This document shows, one piece after another, positions 287 through 7,053 of a stretch of 64,000 nt of DNA. Origin of the DNA: a virus; IMG/VR virus record IMGVR_UViG_3300031726_000433, positions 1 to 64,000 of that record; one strand, 5' to 3'. The position numbers and the translations under genes are program-made. Position 1 is the first letter of the stretch, and every line of letters begins with the position of its first letter. Below the pieces are notes generated by a model, which was given only the letters and a program-made list of their open reading frames with translations, was not told the DNA's origin and ran no database searches.

Positions 287-425
287 AAGAAAGAAACCAA
301 AACACCAGAGAGCTGGTTGTTTGATGTGTAAACCTTACAAAGATGAAAGAACAAAAGGTTCTAAGAACACCGAAAAACCAAGTGTAAGAAGAAAGTTGCA
401 GAAAGGAAAAGATGAAGATCTCTAA
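273..425 (+). CDS. small basic CxxC protein, 50 aa (below the ORF-track cutoff)
   Basis: ATG 273 to TAA 425 reads MAHHKRKKPKHQRAGCLMCKPYKDERTKGSKNTEKPSVRRKLQKGKDEDL; fills the gap and overlaps both neighbours by 14 nt. Confidence 0.7.
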   Translation: MAHHKRKKPKHQRAGCLMCKPYKDERTKGSKNTEKPSVRRKLQKGKDEDL

Positions 426-1050
426 CTCTGATCTTGTTTCATTTACAAAGGATGCTTTCCACAAGGCTAGCAATAATCAGTCAAAGCTTTCTCCTTTTGA
501 ATTGAACATTGAGGGTATGTCTGGAAATAAGGGTCGTCATCTTCTTAATAATCTCTGTTCCATTCCTCAGACAAGATATCTTGAAGTTGGTATGTGGAGA
601 GGTTCTACACTTTGCTCTGCAATCAAGGGAAATTCAGTTATTGCTACAGGCATTGATAATTGGTCAGAATTTGGCGGACCAATGGGTGAATGCAAGAGTA
701 ACGTAGAAAAGTGCAAGGGATCTTCTCAAGTTAAGATCATTGATCAAGATTGTTTCACAGTAGATAAGAGTTCACTCGATGGTCCTTATAATGTTTATTT
801 CTATGATGGTGGTCATTCTGAAATCGAACAATATAAGGCCATCACTTATTTTGATGAAGTTATGGCAGATTCATTTGTTCTTGTTGTAGATGATTGGATG
901 CAACTTGAAGTTGTTCGTGGTACACTGTTTGGTCTTAAGGATATGAAGTATGATATTCTTTGGGAGAATCATTGTAGGTCTGTTGATTTTAACAGAGCTG
1001 ATTGGTGGTGTGGTTTGTATCTTGCTGTTGTTTCAAAACATAAGGGCTAG
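412..1050 (+). CDS. class I SAM-dependent methyltransferase (Methyltransf_24-like)
   Basis: YLEVGMWRGST motif I, GIDNW, YFYDGGHS, VDDW. Confidence 0.85.
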   Translation: MKISNSDLVSFTKDAFHKASNNQSKLSPFELNIEGMSGNKGRHLLNNLCSIPQTRYLEVGMWRGSTLCSAIKGNSVIATGIDNWSEFGGPMGECKSNVEKCKGSSQVKIIDQDCFTVDKSSLDGPYNVYFYDGGHSEIEQYKAITYFDEVMADSFVLVVDDWMQLEVVRGTLFGLKDMKYDILWENHCRSVDFNRADWWCGLYLAVVSKHKG

Positions 1051-1414
1051 ACCTGGTTTCGACAGAGGACAGTGAAGAATAGAATGCGAGTCGTGGTTGA
1101 TCAGCTTGCCACGTAAAAAGCAGATCAAAAATAACAGTCAACGATAACGTTGAAGTCCCCGCTTGGATGATCTCGGCTAACGCCGCGGCACTCCAGGCTG
1201 CAGCCTAAAAAGTTGCAGGGAATGTTTTCTGGTGAATGTCTGAATAACCAGAAGGCACAAACTTTCAGACAAAAACTTTCAAAGGCGGGCCGTCACCCGG
1301 AGAGAGTTTGGTAAGAGACGGAGTTTGACCTAGCCTCGAGGGTAATAGAGGAAACACTCGTAGTATTTTGTTAATCATTTCTTTTGGACCGGAGTTCGAT
1401 TCTCCGCTAGTCCA
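1044..1414 (+). ncRNA. ssrA: tmRNA (one-piece), tag (A)VNDNVEVPAWMISANAAALQAAA at 1137-1208
   Basis: 5' GGGCTAG-ACCTGGTTTCGAC pairs with 3' CTAGTCC-A giving a G3:U Ala identity pair; T-arm CGGAG TTCGATT CTCCG; tag ORF after ATAACA ends ...QAAA-TAA. Confidence 0.95.
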
Positions 1415-1422
1415 AGTTTCAT

Positions 1423-1493
1423 ACACTCATTGTTCAATGGTAGAACATCTGCTTGACTCGCAGAATACAAAGGTTCGATTCCTTTTGAGTGTA
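1423..1493 (+). tRNA. tRNA-Val(GAC)
   Basis: ACACTCA/TGAGTGT acceptor, GTTC/GAAC D-stem, TCTGC-TTGACTC-GCAGA anticodon arm, AAAGG-TTCGATT-CCTTT T-arm. Confidence 0.85.
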
Positions 1494-1495
1494 CT

Positions 1496-1594
1496 CCATT
1501 AGTAGTTTAAAATTAACAAAAACAACGGACTCTGAATCCGGAGTTGAACTCCCAATCGGTCTAGAACGAGATGAAGAGATTGCCTAATGGACCA
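1496..1594 (+). ncRNA. tRNA-like RNA with Gln(CTG) anticodon arm but no D-loop GG and no TTC T-loop
   Basis: CCATTAG/CTAATGG acceptor then A-CCA; TA linker; GTTT/AAAC D-stem; ACGGA-CTCTGAA-TCCGG; 42-nt replacement of the variable/T region containing a CAATC/GATTG stem. Confidence 0.7.
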
Positions 1595-1597
1595 TTT

Positions 1598-1670
1598 GCT
1601 CTCATGGTGAAACTGGATATCACGTTAGTCTTCTAAACTTAAGTTGGGGGTTCGAGTCCCTCTGAGAGCA
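1598..1670 (+). tRNA. tRNA-Arg(TCT)
   Basis: GCTCTCA/TGAGAGC, GTGA-AACTGGATA-TCAC (A20), TTAGT-CTTCTAA-ACTTA, GGGGG-TTCGAGT-CCCTC. Confidence 0.92.
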
Positions 1671-1675
1671 TGTTG

Positions 1676-1684
1676 TGTTATAAT
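1676..1684 (+). promoter_or_regulatory. extended -10 promoter (TGnTATAAT), probably giving a leaderless mRNA
   Basis: TGTTATAAT ends 6 nt before ATG 1691; no SD sequence. Confidence 0.55.
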
Positions 1685-1690
1685 ACACAA

Positions 1691-2164
1691 ATGAGATACC
1701 AATACGATAACTGGACATGTGGACCCTGCGCTGTTATAAACGCCGCTGAAATTCTTGGTAGGAAGCTTGCTTTGAAGAGAGCAATCTCAGCTGCCAAGTC
1801 TAGTAACAGCAAAGGAACATCTTCAAAGGGAATCGAAAGAGCAGTTAAGGCTGCTGGACTTCAATGTGAGAAATTCAAAGGTAATCATACTCTTCTGTTT
1901 AAGAAGACTTGGAAGCACTCCAGAAAAGAAAAACTGAGAGCGTGTTTCAATCAAGTTCTTTTTTCTGTCAAATCAGAACCTGTTATAATTTGTGTTCAAA
2001 ATGATTCTCATTGGGTTACTGCTGTCGGAACGATAAACGATAAGATTCTTGTATTTGATCCAGTCGATGGGTTATATCTTATCTCAGAACAAACATTTGA
2101 AGGTTTGATTGGAAAGCACGTAAAAACATTCATAGGTATCAGAGTTCATAAGCCCTCATGGTGA
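1691..2164 (+). CDS. C39-family cysteine peptidase
   Basis: Q...TCGPCA (catalytic Cys), SHWVT (His), VFDP (Asp); start moved from 1670, which lies in the tRNA, to ATG 1691. Confidence 0.8.
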   Translation: MRYQYDNWTCGPCAVINAAEILGRKLALKRAISAAKSSNSKGTSSKGIERAVKAAGLQCEKFKGNHTLLFKKTWKHSRKEKLRACFNQVLFSVKSEPVIICVQNDSHWVTAVGTINDKILVFDPVDGLYLISEQTFEGLIGKHVKTFIGIRVHKPSW

Positions 2165-2178
2165 AACTGGACATCACG
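2152..2178 (+). pseudogene. 5' remnant of a tRNA-Arg (acceptor 5' strand plus D-arm)
   Basis: GCCCTCATGGTGAAACTGGACATCACG is 25/27 identical to 1598-1624; no anticodon arm, T-arm or matching 3' strand follows. Confidence 0.75.
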
Positions 2179-2677
2179 GATTTCTTATTTGTAAAGAACC
2201 GTTATCAAATTCCCAGTGACAATTTGGACAAAGTAGAATAACATTCTTGTCATCATTTATTTCTCTTACAGTAGTTGAACCAGTTGTTTTTGATATTGCT
2301 ATTATATGAGCACATTCTACATGCTTTGAATAACCACATATTCCACATATTTGCTGTTTATTTCGTTTCGAATTTCTTGCCAATTGTCTGATTTCAGAAT
2401 ACCACCATGATCTGTGAATACCTGACTCTCTATATTTTTCTTTCAACTCATCAAGGGTCAAATTTAAAAACTTATCCTTATCTTTAAAGAATTGGTCTAA
2501 ACATTGTGGACATCTTTCCTTTATTATCTCTTTTGGATGAAGCTTTTTCTTGCAAATTCTACATGCTCTTTTATTTGCTTTTCTCTTTGGATTTATACTA
2601 TTGTTAAATGAATTTGCGCAAGATATTGAACAGAACTTCTTGTTCTTTGTTTCAGCATTGCATAATGTACAATTCAT
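2174..2677 (-). mobile_element. free-standing HNH homing endonuclease
   Basis: N-terminal CxxC..KFCxxxC finger; CGICG...ECAHII...N...NVILLCPNCHWEFD; the only credible minus-strand gene. Confidence 0.85.
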
Positions 2678-2754
2678 GTTGTCGTATACCCTCAGTTTCC
2701 TAAACTGGTGAAAGGTTAATTGGATTCATGTGAGTTCGAGTCTCACCGACAATA
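2678..2754 (+). tRNA. atypical tRNA-Arg(CCT) with rewired D-arm
   Basis: GTTGTCG/CGACAAT acceptor, 7-nt linker TATACCC, TCAGT-TTCCTAA-ACTGG, 21-nt variable region containing GGTT-AATTGGA, GTGAG-TTCGAGT-CTCAC T-arm. Confidence 0.8.
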
Positions 2755-2767
2755 AGTAGAAAGTGTA

Positions 2768-2796
2768 TGTACTTTCGGCTTGAATATTGTTAAAAT
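2768..2796 (+). promoter_or_regulatory. sigma70-like promoter TGTACT-17-TAAAAT with extended -10
   Basis: Same TGTAC-N17-TAnnnT layout recurs at 3706-3734; AAGGA SD before ATG 2816. Confidence 0.5.
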
Positions 2797-2815
2797 TTAA
2801 TCAAAGGAAAACAAA

Positions 2816-3619
2816 ATGACTGTAATTTTGAACAAGACTGGATTTTTTCTAAATTCAAGCAAGAAGAACAAGAAGACAAAAGAATGGGAATCTTTCTCAA
2901 AGAAGATTAATACAAAATCTAGCATTGAACTTTTGACATACTGGAAACATGAGATCAAAATTGGTAATGGCGTTTTAACTGGTGATTTCTTTCACATTCT
3001 CGAAGACATGGATTCTGCTCTTCTTACAACGATTGAGATGTTGACTGATTCGAACTGGAAGAAAAATCTTGTTGGTTGGAAGGATCCTGTCGAAGTTAAA
3101 GATCCTCTTGATTTCGTAGAAGTTTACAAGTATGTCGATATATCAAACCACCACGATCTTGATAATCCAGATTTTGAAATCTATCCTTCTTGTCACGGAA
3201 TTGGTAAACCGTGGGAAGGTGAGTCAATGAATGGTGTTTCTGAAGAAGATAGAAAACGATGTAATACATATGCTATAGAATTTCTTCAGTGGAAAGAGTT
3301 GAGAGCCATTCCTCTTCGTATCGCTCCAAAGATGCAGTTCGGAGAGATCGTTTGGAAGAAAGGTAAGAAGACAAAAGAAAGCGATGATGGTCTCGGAAAG
3401 CTATTTAAGAAGTGGAAGATGAATATTCCTCCGAGAGATATCGACAAGAGGGTTACTAGAGAATTTAACTACACTCTTTCAGTAGGCGAATTTTTTGAGG
3501 GAATCGCTGGTGAACTTTGTTTCTTTAGTACACCAGAGAATAGAAAGCAGCAGATGGACGTTTTGAATGAAAGAGTTGAATCTGTAGAAAAAGATGTTAA
3601 GAAAGGTAAGTATAAGTAA
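2816..3619 (+). CDS. hypothetical protein
   Basis: 267-aa ORF with SD and upstream promoter; no recognisable motif. Confidence 0.8.
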   Translation: MTVILNKTGFFLNSSKKNKKTKEWESFSKKINTKSSIELLTYWKHEIKIGNGVLTGDFFHILEDMDSALLTTIEMLTDSNWKKNLVGWKDPVEVKDPLDFVEVYKYVDISNHHDLDNPDFEIYPSCHGIGKPWEGESMNGVSEEDRKRCNTYAIEFLQWKELRAIPLRIAPKMQFGEIVWKKGKKTKESDDGLGKLFKKWKMNIPPRDIDKRVTREFNYTLSVGEFFEGIAGELCFFSTPENRKQQMDVLNERVESVEKDVKKGKYK

Positions 3620-3629
3620 GAAGATTTGT

Positions 3630-3700
3630 TGCCCCATAATGTAATGGTAGCATGAAACATTCTGAATGTTTTCGTTCGGGTTCGAGTCCTGATGGGGCTG
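3630..3700 (+). tRNA. tRNA-Gln(CTG)
   Basis: TGCCCCA/TGGGGCT, ATGT/GCAT, AAACA-TTCTGAA-TGTTT, TCGGG-TTCGAGT-CCTGA. Confidence 0.9.
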
Positions 3701-3705
3701 AGAGA

Positions 3706-3734
3706 TGTACAAATAGAAGTTGTTGTTATATATT
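3706..3734 (+). promoter_or_regulatory. sigma70-like promoter TGTACA-17-TATATT upstream of tRNA-Gly
   Basis: 17-nt spacing; ends 12 nt before the tRNA 5' end. Confidence 0.5.
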
Positions 3735-3746
3735 AGTAAAGTGATT

Positions 3747-3817
3747 GCGGGTATAGTATAGAGGCAATACGTCATCCTTCCACGTTGAAATCATCGGTTC
3801 GATCCCGATTACCCGCT
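3747..3817 (+). tRNA. tRNA-Gly(TCC)
   Basis: GCGGGTA/TACCCGC-T, GTAT/ATAC, TCATC-CTTCCAC-GTTGA, ATCGG-TTCGATC-CCGAT. Confidence 0.92.
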
Positions 3818-3818
3818 C

Positions 3819-4406
3819 ATGAAGAATGTTTTAGAAGAATTGCAGGTTCCAGAAGGACCGAGTTGGCCGTCAAGGTTAGCTGCAGCTCTTCTTACAAAGT
3901 TGGGCAAGTTAAAAGTAATAGAGATAGGAACTGCGTATGGTAATCACTTAAAAACGTATGGTCATCTTGCCAGTAGAATCGTTTGTATAGATCCAATGTA
4001 TGATTGGGTTCCTGACATCACAGAGAATGATGGATTCGATTCACAAAAAGTTGATCAAAGAAAAATTGCCGTCTGGCATCAAAACGCACTCGAGTGTGGA
4101 AATCACATAGAATTGATCACTGGAAATTCGTATATTTCCCATGAGTCAAATGTTCTAAATGAATCTTTTGAAATATTGTTAATTGATGGGTGCCATCATC
4201 CAGCTTCAGAAGTTGTTAAGGATTATAAACTTTACTTAAAACATTTGACGAATCCTCACTACGTCGTTTGGGATGATCTTAGAGAAAGTGATATAAAAGA
4301 AGCAGTAAGACTTCAAAAAATTTTTCTAGAAGAACAAGGTTTAAAGGTAGAAGAAAAAAGTTTCAATTCTGGCGCAGAAGCATTATTGCAGTTTATTTCA
4401 AAGTAA
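3819..4406 (+). CDS. class I SAM-dependent methyltransferase (Methyltransf_24-like)
   Basis: VIEIGTAYG, CIDP, LIDGCHH, VWDD. Confidence 0.8.
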   Translation: MKNVLEELQVPEGPSWPSRLAAALLTKLGKLKVIEIGTAYGNHLKTYGHLASRIVCIDPMYDWVPDITENDGFDSQKVDQRKIAVWHQNALECGNHIELITGNSYISHESNVLNESFEILLIDGCHHPASEVVKDYKLYLKHLTNPHYVVWDDLRESDIKEAVRLQKIFLEEQGLKVEEKSFNSGAEALLQFISK

Positions 4407-4407
4407 C

Positions 4408-4491
4408 GCTCCTTTCCCATAGTGGTCTAGTGGACTGGTTTTGTAAACCAGCGGGGAAACCCAAACGTCGGTTCGAATCCGACAGGGAGCT
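4408..4491 (+). tRNA. tRNA-Thr(TGT) with long variable arm
   Basis: GCTCCTT/AGGGAGC, CCAT/GTGG, CTGGT-TTTGTAA-ACCAG, variable CGGGGAAACCCAAAC, GTCGG-TTCGAAT-CCGAC. Confidence 0.85.
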
Positions 4492-4613
4492 TTAGAAGAA
4501 GCTCAACTTTTTAAGGGCACTCGAAGGTGTCGGAGTGATTTAAAATAAAATACCTATAACCTGGCATACTTAAGCCAAAGTGAGTACAGAAGCTCACCGA
4601 GGAGATCAAGAGT

Positions 4614-5174
4614 ATGTCAGATTTCACACAGGCTATAGTGGTTGTATTAAGGAATGAAGGTGGTTGGGTGGATAACCCAAAGGATCCAGGTGGCGAAACA
4701 GCGTGGGGCATTTCGACTCTGATAATCAATCAATCTAAGATTACCAATGAAGAACTTGGTTTCACTGCCGGAGTTGATCCAGTCGTTGATAATAGACAAC
4801 CTGGTTGGTTAAAGAAACTTTCCGTAGATGGAGCTAAAGCAATCTATAAGAAGCTTTTCTGGGATAAGTTTCATTACGAGAATATTCTTGATCAAAGAGT
4901 TGCTACAAAGATCTTTGACTGTGGAATTAATTGCGGACCTAAGAGAGCTCACATCATGGCTCAGAAGGCTGCAAATGTCTTGGGACAAGGACTGGTTGTA
5001 GATGGCATTCTTGGTCCTCATTCTATGTCAAGTATAAACGTTTGTGATCCTGATAAGTTTCTTCAAGCAATGTGTGAAGAAATGAAAAAGTATTATATCG
5101 CAATTTCAACATCAAATCCAACCCTGAAGGTATTCTTGAAAAATTGGCTTTACAGAGCTTCATGGGTAGGATAA
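4614..5174 (+). CDS. GH108 lysozyme (endolysin) with C-terminal peptidoglycan-binding domain
   Basis: NEGGWVDNPKDPGGETAWGIS, IFDCGINCG, VDGILGP, FLKNWLYRA; SD GAGGAG. Confidence 0.92.
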   Translation: MSDFTQAIVVVLRNEGGWVDNPKDPGGETAWGISTLIINQSKITNEELGFTAGVDPVVDNRQPGWLKKLSVDGAKAIYKKLFWDKFHYENILDQRVATKIFDCGINCGPKRAHIMAQKAANVLGQGLVVDGILGPHSMSSINVCDPDKFLQAMCEEMKKYYIAISTSNPTLKVFLKNWLYRASWVG

Positions 5175-5245
5175 GCTTCTATAGCTTGAAGGTCAAGCAC
5201 TTCCTTGGTACGGAAGAGTCAAGAGTTCGATTCTCTTTGGAAGCA
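5175..5245 (+). tRNA. tRNA-Thr(GGT)
   Basis: GCTTCTA/TGGAAGC, GCTT/AAGC, CTTCC-TTGGTAC-GGAAG, AAGAG-TTCGATT-CTCTT. Confidence 0.92.
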
Positions 5246-5246
5246 C

Positions 5247-5314
5247 TGCAGCGAGCTAGGAGTAAGCCGACTCTCATAAGGTTGTGCTCAAGGGTTCGAG
5301 TCCCTTCGTTGCAA
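5247..5314 (+). tRNA. tRNA-CAT (Met/fMet/Ile2 unresolved) with shortened D-arm
   Basis: TGCAGCG/CGTTGCA-A, only 14 nt between acceptor and anticodon stems, CGACT-CTCATAA-GGTTG, AAGGG-TTCGAGT-CCCTT. Confidence 0.8.
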
Positions 5315-5317
5315 CAT

Positions 5318-5401
5318 GGAGTATAAGCCGTGAACTGGGTCACGAGTGGTTTGCTAATCCATGACCGAAAGGTCAGCAGGGTTCGATTCCCTGATACTCC
5401 T
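5318..5401 (+). tRNA. tRNA-Ser(GCT)
   Basis: GGAGTAT/ATACTCC, GTGGT-TTGCTAA-TCCAT, variable arm GACC-GAAA-GGTC, CAGGG-TTCGATT-CCCTG. Confidence 0.88.
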
Positions 5402-5404
5402 TAC

Positions 5405-5475
5405 GCTTTCTTCGTATAGTGGCAATACGCTAGTTTCGTAAACTAGTTACCTGAGTTCGATTCTCAGAGAAAGCA
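5405..5475 (+). tRNA. tRNA-Thr(CGT)
   Basis: GCTTTCT/AGAAAGC, GTAT/ATAC, CTAGT-TTCGTAA-ACTAG, CTGAG-TTCGATT-CTCAG. Confidence 0.92.
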
Positions 5476-5509
5476 AACCCCCGTCAACTATTCATTCGGA
5501 TTTCCGAAT

Positions 5510-5581
5510 GACCCTATAGCCAAGTGGAAAGGCACTAGTCTGCAAAACTTCTAATCCTCAGTTCGATTCTGAGTAGGGTCT
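5510..5581 (+). tRNA. tRNA-Cys(GCA)
   Basis: GACCCTA/TAGGGTC-T, GCC/GGC, loop CTGCAAA (only 3 bp of the anticodon stem pair), CTCAG-TTCGATT-CTGAG. Confidence 0.85.
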
Positions 5582-6210: not shown

Positions 6211-7053
6211 TTGGTGAGAGACAGAATTTCTTTTTCCGAATGGCAATCTTATCGTAAAGGTTGTCAATGGCGGTGGAAGATCGATTACGTCGATGGTGTT
6301 CGCACACCGGCGTATGGTATCTACATGGACTTTGGCACCTGCGCTCACGGTGCCATTGAAAAACATAAGACAAGAAAAGATCCTCTTTCAGTTGAAGATA
6401 CAAAGATTCATTTTGAGAAGTCTTTTAGGGATCTCTTCACTAAGAATAAAGATAAGTACAAGGAAAGAGAACGAACTCTTAACGTAGATGATTTTGTTAA
6501 AGCTGGTCACAAGATTATTGATCATCTTGATAAGTGTGAAGAATTAAAAACTGCTGAAGTTGTCTATAATGAACATGAGTTGATTCTACCAATTGATAGA
6601 TCTGATGAAGTGAAGATAAACTTCAAAGGATTTATCGACATGATCATTAAGACTACTGATAAGCGTGACAAGACGATTCTGTATATCATTGACTTTAAGA
6701 CGTGTTCTTGGGGATGGGGAAAAGACAAGAGACAGGATAGAGATCTTCATTCGCAACTTTTTCTTTATAAGCACTTCCTTTCAAAAAAGTTTAACCTTGA
6801 TCCAAAGAACATAAAGACAGCGTTTATTCTTCTTAAGAGAACTCCACCAAAGGGCGGAGATGCCGTCGAGTTCTTTCCAATAAGTGCCGGACCAATCAGT
6901 GTGCAAAGAGCTTTAGACGAATTGAATTCAGATATAACTGATATGGATCAGCGTACTAAAACTGATACACTCAAGAAAAACAGAAACATGTGCAAGAATG
7001 AGTACGGAGATGTTTGTCCGTACTTTGGGACAACAAAGTGTACCAATGAGTAA
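6211..7053 (+). CDS. PD-(D/E)XK exonuclease (RecB/AddB/Cas4-like)
   Basis: [33 protein letters not shown]-terminal Cys cluster (C..CPYF..C). Confidence 0.88.

What the first reader, a model, noticed from the sequence alone, without database searches (positions are those of the whole stretch)
1423..5581. A tRNA array in which many members are architecturally re-engineered
Seen in one 4-kb array: rewired D-arm Arg(CCU), elbow-less Gln(CUG)-like RNA, Thr(UGU) with a long variable arm, CAU tRNA with a shrunken D-arm, Ser(GCU) with an odd D-arm, Val with U37, and pyrimidine mismatches in the anticodon stems of Arg(UCU), Gly, Ser and Cys. Stems, anticodons and identity bases are retained, which argues against random decay. 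Known: host defences (PrrC, RloC, PARIS AriB, retron PtuAB, VapC) cleave tRNAs and phage tRNA variants can escape them. Inference: evasion by changing tRNA shape rather than anticodon-loop sequence, possibly with decoys.
Basis: partly seen in the sequence, partly recalled or inferred. Interest (0 to 1): 0.78.

Follow-up and report, generated by a model that had tools for sequence, protein, structure and literature searches.

The report
Phage tRNA array with non-cloverleaf tRNAs
This stretch is the tail of a large phage tRNA/tmRNA cluster in which several tRNAs really are built differently from the textbook cloverleaf, most strikingly an arginine tRNA whose D-stem is assembled from strands on either side of the anticodon arm, a conserved design shared by many phages that gene finders miss.

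Summary
The array is real: tmRNA, 9 ARAGORN tRNAs, and 2 more that only covariance models see. It is the 3' end of a bigger cluster on a about 48%-complete IMG/VR phage contig.

Five flagged oddities are conserved and covary in other phages:
- Rewired Arg(CCU), 2678-2754. It belongs to a family of at least 33 phage tRNAs (Arg anticodons plus two Ile). The D-stem 3' strand precedes the anticodon arm; the 5' strand and D-loop follow it. The rewired helix is 100% paired and all 3 pairs covary. Cultured Streptomyces and Microbacterium phages carry it unannotated or mislabelled.
- Thr(UGU) with a GAAA-capped extra arm, also in jumbo phage GAP32.
- Ser(GCU) with a Sec-like D-arm.
- A compact-D CAU tRNA.
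- Val(GAC) with U37.

Not supported:
- The U·U anticodon-stem mismatches match the phage background (25% of 453 tRNAs) and are mostly not conserved.
- The "elbow-less Gln mimic" is unique to this genome, not tRNA-like by any model, and probably a relic.

An HNH gene has cut the canonical Arg(CCU) right after U33, and the rewired Arg(CCU) sits beside it.

These are most likely working decoders. Nuclease evasion by shape is plausible but untested. Earlier reports of this scan noted the rewired Arg and extra-arm families on other phage DNA. I found no paper describing them.

The parts
1044..1414 (+). Phage tmRNA (context; heads this part of the cluster)
   Evidence: ARAGORN. Rfam RF00023, 114 bits. 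Conserved in L001, L017, L034.
1423..1494 (+). tRNA-Val(GAC) with U37 (loop UUGACUC) and a 3-bp D-stem
   Evidence: Rfam 64.6 bits. U37 is kept in the orthologues L017:4404 and L034:2604, with compensatory anticodon-stem changes. A pyrimidine at position 37 occurs in only 14 of 453 phage tRNAs.
1496..1594 (+). Spacer with a tRNA-Gln(CUG)-type anticodon hairpin ('elbow-less Gln mimic'); probably a relic, not a supported RNA gene
   Evidence: No Rfam hit. Fold z-score -1.8. No homologue; relatives have a 115-aa ORF here. The 16-nt arm is identical to canonical tRNA-Gln arms only.
1597..1671 (+). Canonical tRNA-Arg(UCU) with U28.U42
   Evidence: Rfam 61.7 bits. The mismatch is not shared by L017 or L034.
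1670..2164 (+). Peptidase C39-like ORF lying between the two Arg tRNA slots
   Evidence: Pfam PF03412, E=2e-9. The same ORF follows the rewired Arg(UCU) in L001, L037 and L042.
2151..2183 (+). 5' fragment (positions 1 to about 33) of the canonical tRNA-Arg(CCU), broken right after U33
   Evidence: An 88% direct repeat of 1593-1624. Aligns with Arg(CCU) of L001 and L034 up to the anticodon and no further (alignment A3).
2174..2677 (-). HNH endonuclease gene inserted at the break
   Evidence: Pfam HNH_2, E=3.6e-12. PHROG HNH endonuclease.
2678..2754 (+). Rewired tRNA-Arg(CCU). Order of elements: 7-bp acceptor, U8 A9, UACC (D-stem 3' strand), C26, anticodon arm, UGAAA linker, GGUU (D-stem 5' strand), D-loop-like AAUUGGAUU, CAU, T-arm
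   Evidence: Rfam tRNA 29.1 bits. Family model R1 87.6 bits. L001 homologue with many compensatory changes. Family covariation.
2816..3619 (+). 267-aa ORF of unknown function inside the array
   Evidence: No Pfam or PHROG hit. No relatives in viral contigs.
3629..3701 (+). tRNA-Gln(CUG), essentially canonical (U1.U72)
   Evidence: Rfam 53.1 bits. Orthologues.
3747..3818 (+). tRNA-Gly(UCC) with U30.U40
   Evidence: Rfam 60.1 bits. The same stem, with U30.U40, is in L034 and L036:310; L001 has G30.U40.
3819..4406 (+). Methyltransf_24-family ORF inside the array
   Evidence: Pfam PF13578, E=1.1e-8. Partly conserved in L034.
4408..4491 (+). tRNA-Thr(UGU) with an extra variable arm (GGG/CCC capped by GAAA)
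   Evidence: Rfam 52.9 bits. Family of 19 sequences that includes phages GAP32 and phiA047.
4614..5174 (+). GH108 / PG_binding_3 endolysin inside the array
   Evidence: Pfam and PHROG.
5175..5246 (+). tRNA-Thr(GGU), canonical
5247..5315 (+). CAU tRNA (Met or Ile2) with a compact D region
   Evidence: ARAGORN. Rfam 29.3 bits. Orthologue L034:7006-7074 and L005:6876 with compensatory changes. Other compact-D CAU tRNAs occur in viral contigs.
5318..5400 (+). tRNA-Ser(GCU), 7/5 body, 4-nt connector AAGC, 5-bp D-stem with a 6-nt loop, GAAA-capped variable arm, U73
   Evidence: Rfam tRNA-Sec model only, 27.4 bits. Orthologues in L017, L034 and L036 with a covarying D-stem.
5405..5475 (+). tRNA-Thr(CGU), canonical
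5510..5581 (+). tRNA-Cys(GCA) with C27.C43 and U28.U42
   Evidence: Rfam 57 bits. L015 has the same anticodon stem fully paired.

Best explanation
The region is the downstream part of a large phage-encoded tRNA/tmRNA cluster. The cluster supplies the phage with its own decoders. Its slots are filled, phage by phage, with either canonical tRNAs or members of phage-specific non-canonical tRNA families.

The Arg(CCU) gene at 2678-2754 is a working arginine tRNA with a strand-swapped core. The D-stem 3' strand comes directly after U8-A9 and runs into the anticodon stem. The D-stem 5' strand and a D-loop come after the anticodon arm, joined by a UGAAA linker. That D-loop keeps A14, R15, G18, G19, A20 and A21. 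A short CAU segment, ending in Y48, then leads into the T-arm.

Every new chain junction (9 to 22, 43 to 10, 21 to 46-48) joins residues that are neighbours in the canonical L-shape. I therefore infer that the same 3D core forms, that ArgRS still sees A20 and C35, and that the tRNA reads AGG.

Here it stands in for the canonical Arg(CCU), which an HNH endonuclease gene has cut at the anticodon.

Thr(UGU) with its GAAA-capped extra arm, Ser(GCU) with a Sec-like D-arm, the compact-D CAU tRNA and Val(GAC)-U37 are likewise maintained, functional variants.

What is shown and what is inferred:
- Shown: the gene anatomy, conservation, covariation, position in arrays, and slot filling.
- Inferred: the folding, the charging and the decoding.
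- Not shown: why the designs persist. A conflict over tRNAs is my favoured but unproven driver.
For: Rewired family.
- Two pattern scans and model R1 give at least 33 members at 45-99 bits, against less than 30 bits for canonical tRNAs.
- In alignment A2 (23 sequences), 95% of cells are paired and 17 of 20 pairs show double changes. The rewired helix is 100% paired and all 3 of its pairs covary. No shuffle of 500 reached the observed values, and sliding the partners collapses the signal.
- RNAalifold predicts the same helix on its own.
- Anticodons are ACG, UCU, CCU, GCG and UCG, plus two GAU members. One GAU member has G15..C48 where the others have A15..U48.
- All members lie in the same orientation as their neighbours inside tRNA arrays. 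In 15 of 17 fetched stretches with a rewired Arg(ACG), no canonical Arg(ACG) is seen.
- L001 has a rewired Arg(UCU) and no canonical one in the slot where the window, L017 and L034 have a canonical one.
- Cultured phages carry it.
- A D-arm-less tRNA is accepted by E. coli HisRS, EF-Tu and the ribosome without adaptation (PMC11551756).

Other members.
- Thr family: 98% of cells paired and 20 of 23 pairs covary. The first pair of the variable arm is G-C in 9 sequences, A-U in 8 and C-G in 1.
- Ser D-stem covariation.
- CAU.
- Val U37 in 3 of 3 orthologues.

HNH break after U33.
Against: - There are no expression, processing, aminoacylation or decoding data for any of these RNAs.
- The 3D argument is reasoning from the canonical tRNA structure, not a model.
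- The rewired helix is only 3 bp plus a U.U pair. Positions 27.43 are unpaired in 19 of 23 members.
- The window copy has G1.U72, U where the family has A21, and no encoded CCA.
- The CAU analysis rests on 3 sequences and the Ser analysis on 4.
- The fetched loci are partial, so a 'missing' canonical isoacceptor could lie outside them.
- Both pattern scans fixed parts of the sequence, so the invariance of the linker and D-loop is partly imposed.
Confidence: 0.78

Rival explanations
1. First reader's reading. The altered shapes let phage tRNAs escape host or rival-phage nucleases that recognise the tRNA body, while the canonical host isoacceptors are destroyed. The altered shapes are the rewired core, the extra arm and the compact or elongated D-arms.
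For: - The designs are phage-specific in what I searched. R1 was not found in 302 sampled bacterial genomes. The one hit in a bacterial assembly lies on a 3-kb MAG contig.
- The designs have spread across phages of very different hosts and replace canonical genes slot by slot. That suggests an advantage.
- tRNA-cutting defences and resistant phage tRNAs are established (PMC11464382, PMC11555353, PMC10264068).
Against: - No nuclease is linked to any of these tRNAs.
- Known escapes map to the anticodon stem-loop or to dosage, not to body shape.
- The anticodon loops here are canonical, so loop-directed nucleases such as colicin D should still see them.
- Relatives do well with canonical versions in the same slots.
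Confidence: 0.3
2. DNA-level selfishness. Homing endonucleases target conserved tRNA genes. Non-canonical alleles persist because their genes lack the cleavage site, or because they are copied along with the endonuclease gene during repair.
For: - In the window an HNH gene sits exactly at the break of the canonical Arg(CCU) and abuts the rewired Arg(CCU).
- HNH or GIY-YIG genes flank rewired copies in TomSawyer, A3Wally, Mildred21 (the UCG copy), L166 and L112.
- In GAP32 an HNH gene lies 54 nt after the extra-arm Thr.
Against: - Only about 6-7 of 36 rewired loci have an adjacent endonuclease gene.
- Such genes are common throughout phage tRNA arrays. A3Wally has one next to canonical tRNAs too.
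- This reading does not explain why the tertiary-contact residues are kept.
Confidence: 0.15
3. Relaxed constraint. The oddities are drift or decay in auxiliary tRNA genes that the phage barely needs.
For: - This fits the scattered U.U and C.C mismatches, which occur at the background rate of 25% and are mostly not conserved.
- It fits the Gln-like spacer.
- It fits U73 and U31.U39 in the window's Ser(GCU), which the orthologues lack.
Against: It is contradicted for the rewired Arg, Thr, Ser D-arm, CAU and Val-U37 by compensatory changes across many lineages.
Confidence: 0.07

Closest known systems
Animal mitochondrial D-arm-less tRNA-Ser(AGY) ('type III' mt-tRNA; review PMC7609411)
   Same: There is no D hairpin between the acceptor and anticodon stems. 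The short connector interacts with the variable region, and the anticodon helix is extended.
   Different: The phage family keeps a full D-loop equivalent (A14, R15, G18, G19, A20, A21), placed after the anticodon arm, and a covarying 3-bp D-helix. It is encoded by phages of bacteria and decodes Arg or Ile. It sits among canonical tRNAs that use the ordinary bacterial translation apparatus.
Canonical class I bacterial and phage tRNA-Arg (Rfam RF00005), for example the window's own Arg(UCU) at 1597-1671
   Same: It has a 7-bp acceptor, a 5-bp T-arm with a T-loop, and a 7-nt anticodon loop with U33 and A37. It carries Arg anticodons and a GGA motif that supplies A20.
   Different: The order of the D-stem strands around the anticodon arm is swapped. 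Rfam tRNA scores are at or below threshold (29-32 bits, or no hit at all). ARAGORN misses it.
(8/4) tRNA-Ser and allo-tRNAs of bacteria and phages (Mukai et al. 2017, PMC5389517)
   Same: The window's Ser(GCU) has a Sec-like long D-stem with a small loop and a long variable arm. The distant relative L005 has a true 8/4 Ser(GCU) with a 6-bp D-stem.
   Different: The window lineage is 7/5. The would-be 8th acceptor pair and the first D-stem pair are mismatched (A.G and C.A) in all four orthologues.
Class II tRNAs (Leu, Ser, Tyr in bacteria)
   Same: Thr(UGU) carries a stem-loop in the variable region: 3-4 bp capped by a GNRA tetraloop.
   Different: The anticodon is UGU, and G1-C72 and C2-G71 fit Thr identity. 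The arm is shorter than in tRNA-Ser. In GAP32 the gene is annotated simply as tRNA-Thr.
Nuclease-resistant phage tRNAs (T5 tRNA-Lys against PARIS AriB, T5 tRNA-Tyr against retron Eco7 PtuAB; PMC11464382, PMC11555353)
   Same: These are phage-encoded isoacceptors that differ from the host's, and they lie in large tRNA clusters.
   Different: In those cases resistance maps to anticodon stem-loop substitutions or to expression level. Here the body architecture differs, and no cognate nuclease is known.

Membership tests
tRNA (Rfam RF00005 cloverleaf): Arg(CCU) at 2678-2754 | D hairpin (stem 10-13/22-25 closed by its own loop) between the acceptor and anticodon stems | tested here: not met
   Only UAUACCC lies there. 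Its ACC pairs with GGU downstream of the anticodon arm.
tRNA (Rfam RF00005 cloverleaf): Arg(CCU) at 2678-2754 | 7-bp acceptor, T-arm with a T-loop, 7-nt anticodon loop with U33 and a purine at 37 | tested here: met
tRNA (Rfam RF00005 cloverleaf): Arg(CCU) at 2678-2754 | Score at or above the Rfam gathering threshold (29 bits) | tested here: inconclusive
   The window copy scores 29.1 bits. Of seven other members, three score 29-32 bits and four give no hit at E<=1.
   The window copy scores 87.6 bits. The helix is 100% paired across the family.
Functional arginine tRNA | Expressed, CCA-tailed, charged by ArgRS, decodes AGG | not testable with these tools
   Indirect evidence only: A20 and C35 are retained, and the tRNA fills the isoacceptor slot.
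Class II tRNA: Thr(UGU) at 4408-4491 | Base-paired variable arm of more than 10 nt | tested here: met
   A 16-nt variable region with GGG/CCC capped by GAAA. It covaries in the family.
Class II tRNA: Thr(UGU) at 4408-4491 | Leu, Ser or Tyr (or Sec) specificity | tested here: not met
   The anticodon is UGU in all 19 family members.
tRNA-Sec (RF01852): Ser(GCU) at 5318-5400 | UCA anticodon, 8/5 acceptor/T configuration, score at or above 47 bits | tested here: not met
   The anticodon is GCU, the body is 7/5, and the score is 27.4 bits.
(8/4) tRNA-Ser / allo-tRNA (Mukai 2017): Ser(GCU) at 5318-5400 | 8-bp acceptor stem plus 4-bp T-stem | tested here: not met
   A8 faces G or C in all four orthologues, and the T-stem is 5 bp. 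L005's Ser(GCU) does fit 8/4.
Nuclease-evading phage tRNA | A cognate host or rival nuclease that cuts the canonical isoacceptor but not the variant | not testable with these tools
   No nuclease was identified. The literature cases map to the anticodon stem-loop.
tRNA or tRNA mimic: spacer 1496-1594 | Covariance-model match, or conservation with compensatory change | tested here: not met

The most novel reading that the evidence does not exclude
Phages carry monophyletic families of topologically or architecturally altered tRNAs that replace canonical isoacceptors. These are the strand-swapped Arg/Ile core, the GAAA-capped extra arm on Thr, and compact or elongated D-arms. On this reading they persist because the altered body makes them invisible to tRNA-directed immune or competitor nucleases. 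That would be escape by shape, a second route beside the known anticodon stem-loop substitutions. The rewired core would also be the first natural non-cloverleaf tRNA used by bacterial ribosomes.
Probability: 0.3. Interest if true: 0.95.

Novelty: new variant of a known kind. Interest (0 to 1): 0.82.

Why it matters
Textbooks and recent papers state that all bacterial-world tRNAs are cloverleaves (PMC11551756). A widespread, covarying family whose D-stem strands are wired in a different order shows that the L-shaped core can be built with another chain topology.

The family occurs in cultured, easily grown phages (Streptomyces phage Mildred21, Microbacterium phage A3Wally). Folding, charging, decoding and nuclease sensitivity can therefore be tested directly.

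It also exposes a blind spot in annotation. These genes are unannotated, or labelled 'tRNA-OTHER' or 'tRNA-Phe(gaa)'. Phage tRNA repertoires and codon-compensation analyses therefore miss an arginine tRNA in these phages, in several arrays apparently the only Arg(ACG).

The slot-by-slot swapping of canonical and non-canonical versions among close relatives gives a natural system for asking what selects tRNA body shape.

Tried and rejected
1. My first reading was that the Arg(CCU)-like RNA was a wreck left by the HNH insertion. I rejected it when blastn found a 77%-identical copy in L001 with compensatory changes and a different Arg anticodon, and then a whole family.
2. I looked for relatives through the 267-aa array ORF and found none.
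3. A strict Ser D-arm pattern in viral contigs gave only two chance hits inside coding sequence.
4. blastn of the CAU and Ser stretch against GenBank phages gave no match.
5. A scan for the 16-nt arm of the Gln 'mimic' gave only ordinary tRNA-Gln genes and coding hits.
6. Linkage to homing endonucleases as a general rule was not borne out: most family loci lack one.
7. An 8/4 reading of Ser(GCU) is not met. An 8/4 reading of the CAU tRNA is possible in the window and L034, but a 7/5 reading fits equally well and L005 is 7/5.
8. Anticodon-stem mismatches as a special feature of this array: rejected against the background.
9. Not tried: alternative genetic codes, and any 3D modelling of RNA (no tool was available).

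Full report
**What is there.** The window is the first 64 kb of a 98.7-kb IMG/VR phage contig that CheckV rates 48% complete. It has about 39% G+C and a constant positive GC skew. ARAGORN finds a tmRNA (1044-1414) and nine tRNAs between 1423 and 5581. Rfam confirms eight of them at 53-65 bits. At threshold it adds the CAU tRNA (29.3 bits) and an Arg(CCU)-like RNA at 2678-2754 (29.1 bits). Ser(GCU) at 5318-5400 appears only as a sub-threshold tRNA-Sec match.

The tRNAs are interleaved with ORFs:
- a peptidase C39-like protein (1670-2164);
- an HNH endonuclease on the minus strand (2174-2677);
- a 267-aa protein of unknown function;
- a Methyltransf_24 protein;
- a GH108 endolysin.

**Relatives.** I used the PD-(D/E)XK exonuclease just downstream (6211-7053) as a handle. 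This fetched syntenic arrays from viral and metagenome contigs. They are L001 (the same as L013 and L031; 71% amino-acid identity), L017, L034 and L036 (62-67%), and more distant ones (L004, L005, L037, L042).

In L001, L017 and L034 ten to seventeen further tRNAs precede the tmRNA, so the window shows only the tail of the cluster. The slot order is conserved: tmRNA, Val, Arg(UCU), C39 ORF, Arg(CCU), Gln, Gly, Thr(UGU), Thr(GGU), CAU, Ser(GCU), Thr(CGU), Cys, exonuclease. This allows comparison gene by gene.

**The rewired Arg.** I first took 2678-2754 for debris of the HNH insertion. blastn then found a 77%-identical copy in L001 (3728-3804) that ARAGORN does not see. That copy differs by compensatory changes in four acceptor pairs and three anticodon-stem pairs, and it carries UCU instead of CCU.

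Two pattern scans of IMG/VR and a covariance model built from 23 sequences (R1) gave at least 33 members. Most score 69-99 bits and two divergent copies score 45. Canonical tRNAs score below 30.

The layout is:
- acceptor (7 bp), then U8 A9;
- UACC, then C;
- the anticodon arm;
- UGAAA;
- GGUU;
- AAUUGGAUA;
- CAU;
- the T-arm and the acceptor 3' strand.

On alignment A2, 95% of cells pair and 17 of 20 pairs show changes on both sides. The helix between the three bases before C26 and the three after the linker is paired in all 23 sequences. Its three pairs take four pair types each (for example A-U 13, G-C 6, C-G 3, U-A 1). No shuffle of 500 reached the observed values, and sliding the partners by 1-3 columns drops pairing to 38-48%. 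RNAalifold finds the same helix unprompted.

**How it most likely folds (inference).** Read against the canonical numbering, the pieces are:
- U8 and A9;
- 22-25, the D-stem 3' strand;
- position 26;
- the anticodon arm;
- a 5-nt bridge;
- 10-13, the D-stem 5' strand;
- A14 A15 .. G18 G19 A20 .. A21;
- three nucleotides ending in U48.

All residues that make the classical core contacts are present: U8-A14, R15-Y48, G18/G19 with the T-loop, and A9 with the 12-23 pair. This mapping rests on established tRNA crystal structures. The three new junctions connect residues that are neighbours in the L-shape.

One GAU member (L189:4482-4558) has G15 with C48 where the others have A15 with U48. A20 and C35, the main ArgRS determinants in E. 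coli (my own knowledge), are retained.

**Evidence that it decodes.** Members always lie in the orientation of the surrounding tRNA genes. Anticodons are ACG (most), UCU, CCU, GCG and UCG, with two Ile(GAU) members. In 15 of 17 fetched stretches with a rewired Arg(ACG), no canonical Arg(ACG) is present.

In this phage lineage the slot before the C39 ORF holds a rewired Arg(UCU) in L001, L037 and L042, and a canonical Arg(UCU) in the window, L017 and L034.

In the window, a 5' fragment of the canonical Arg(CCU) (2151 to about 2183) aligns with the L001 and L034 genes up to U33 and stops there. The HNH gene follows, and the rewired Arg(CCU) begins one base after its start codon.

Homing-endonuclease genes also flank rewired copies in TomSawyer, A3Wally, Mildred21, L166 and L112. 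Most loci have none.

**Distribution and annotation.** blastn finds the family in cultured Streptomyces BE-cluster phages and in Microbacterium phages. Mildred21 has four copies:
- an Ile(GAU) copy next to its CCA-adding enzyme gene, unannotated;
- one copy labelled 'tRNA-OTHER';
- an Arg(UCG) copy labelled 'tRNA-Phe(gaa)';
- an Arg(ACG) copy, unannotated.

The Rfam tRNA model gives 29-32 bits for three of seven other members tested and nothing for the other four. R1 was not found in 302 sampled bacterial genomes of two phyla. The search method does detect the one copy that lies on a 3-kb contig of a Bacteroidetes MAG.

I found no paper describing this topology. A 2024 paper states that all known bacterial tRNAs are cloverleaves. 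It also shows that E. coli HisRS, EF-Tu and the ribosome accept a D-arm-less tRNA (PMC11551756).

**Thr(UGU).** The 84-nt gene has a 3-bp variable arm capped by GAAA. L036 has the same design with a 4-bp arm capped by GAGA. L001, L017 and L034 have ordinary 72-nt genes in that slot.

Full-length homologues exist in jumbo phages GAP32 and fHe-Yen9-04, where they are annotated tRNA-Thr, and in Aeromonas phage phiA047, where the gene is unannotated. A pattern scan gave at least 15 more.

On 19 sequences, 98% of cells pair and 20 of 23 pairs covary, including the first pair of the extra arm. The acceptor keeps G1-C72 and C2-G71, which fits Thr identity (my own knowledge).

**Ser(GCU), CAU and Val.**
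- Ser(GCU): the four orthologues share a 4-nt connector (AAGC), a 5-bp D-stem whose two middle pairs covary, a 6-nt loop and a paired variable arm. The body is 7/5, not the published 8/4, although the distant relative L005 has a true 8/4 Ser(GCU) (PMC5389517). The window copy alone has U73 and U31.U39.
- CAU: the tRNA has an orthologue in L034 that ARAGORN misses, and a relative in L005. The three share a tiny D hairpin and a 3-bp pairing between the bases before the anticodon stem and the variable region. With only three sequences this is suggestive at best. Other compact-D CAU tRNAs occur in viral contigs. L017, L036 and L021 have a normal CAU tRNA in that slot.
- Val(GAC): U37 is present in all three orthologues. 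A pyrimidine at position 37 occurs in 3% of 453 phage tRNAs.

**What does not hold.** One or more anticodon-stem mismatches occur in 25% of the background phage tRNAs, with U28.U42 and U30.U40 among the commonest. The window's Arg(UCU), Cys and Ser mismatches are not shared by orthologues.

The 1496-1594 'Gln mimic' has no model match, no significant fold and no homologue. It sits where relatives carry a 115-aa ORF. Its anticodon arm equals that of ordinary tRNA-Gln(CUG) genes. I read it as a relic or a recombination scar.

**Why the designs persist.** This is not shown.
- Escape from tRNA-directed nucleases is attractive, given the phage restriction, the wide spread and the slot replacement. 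But the documented escapes act through the anticodon stem-loop or through dosage, and no nuclease is tied to these tRNAs.
- Hitch-hiking with homing endonucleases explains the window's local history but not the family.
- Drift explains only the mismatches and the Gln relic.

**Earlier notes of this scan.** Earlier reports of this scan describe the same rewired Arg family and extra-arm Lys/Asn/Thr tRNAs on other phage genomes. I treated them as leads. My conclusions rest on the calls cited above.

Noticed in passing
window 1044-1414: Phage-encoded tmRNA (tag ending LQAAA), conserved in L001, L017 and L034. Streptomyces phage Mildred21 also has an annotated tmRNA in the same kind of tRNA cluster.
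   Followed up: partly
window 1670-2164; L001:3827-4306; L037:4956-5447; L042:2146-2598: A small peptidase C39-like ORF is conserved between the two Arg tRNA slots across distant members of this phage lineage. Its stop codon lies inside the next tRNA gene.
   Followed up: partly
window 412-1050 and 3819-4406: Two Methyltransf_24-family ORFs lie beside or inside the tRNA cluster. Their substrate is unknown.
   Followed up: no
L034:7076-7197 and L017:6914-7036: A conserved element of about 120 nt lies between the CAU and Ser genes. It has a 7-bp acceptor-like closing stem and a T-loop-like motif. ARAGORN and Rfam do not report it.
   Followed up: no
L017:7122-7201 and L036:1514-1598: A further tRNA-like sequence follows Ser(GCU). 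It has an acceptor stem and a T-arm but an odd anticodon region. ARAGORN and Rfam do not report it, and it is absent from the window.
   Followed up: no
L321:2737-2957 (Microbacterium phage A3Wally, MZ150783): A sub-threshold match to bacterial RNase P class A RNA (72 bits; gathering score 100) lies between two tRNA-Arg genes.
   Followed up: no
L208:980-1480 (minus strand): A TadA-like deaminase ORF (dCMP_cyt_deam_1 / MafB19-deam) lies directly downstream of a rewired tRNA-Arg(UCU).
   Followed up: no
L405 (Mildred21, MF155946 73703-73779): A rewired tRNA with an Ile(GAU) anticodon sits between the phage's tRNA nucleotidyltransferase gene and an FtsK-like gene, away from the main array.
   Followed up: partly
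L034:2677-3022 and L017:4730-5085: A 115-aa ORF (N-terminus MKKIFVFGSNLSGIHGAGAA) fills the Val-to-Arg(UCU) spacer in relatives. The window has the 102-nt Gln-like spacer there instead.
   Followed up: no
L322:1639-2328 (Cronobacter phage GAP32): An HNH endonuclease gene lies 54 nt downstream of the extra-arm tRNA-Thr(UGU).
   Followed up: no
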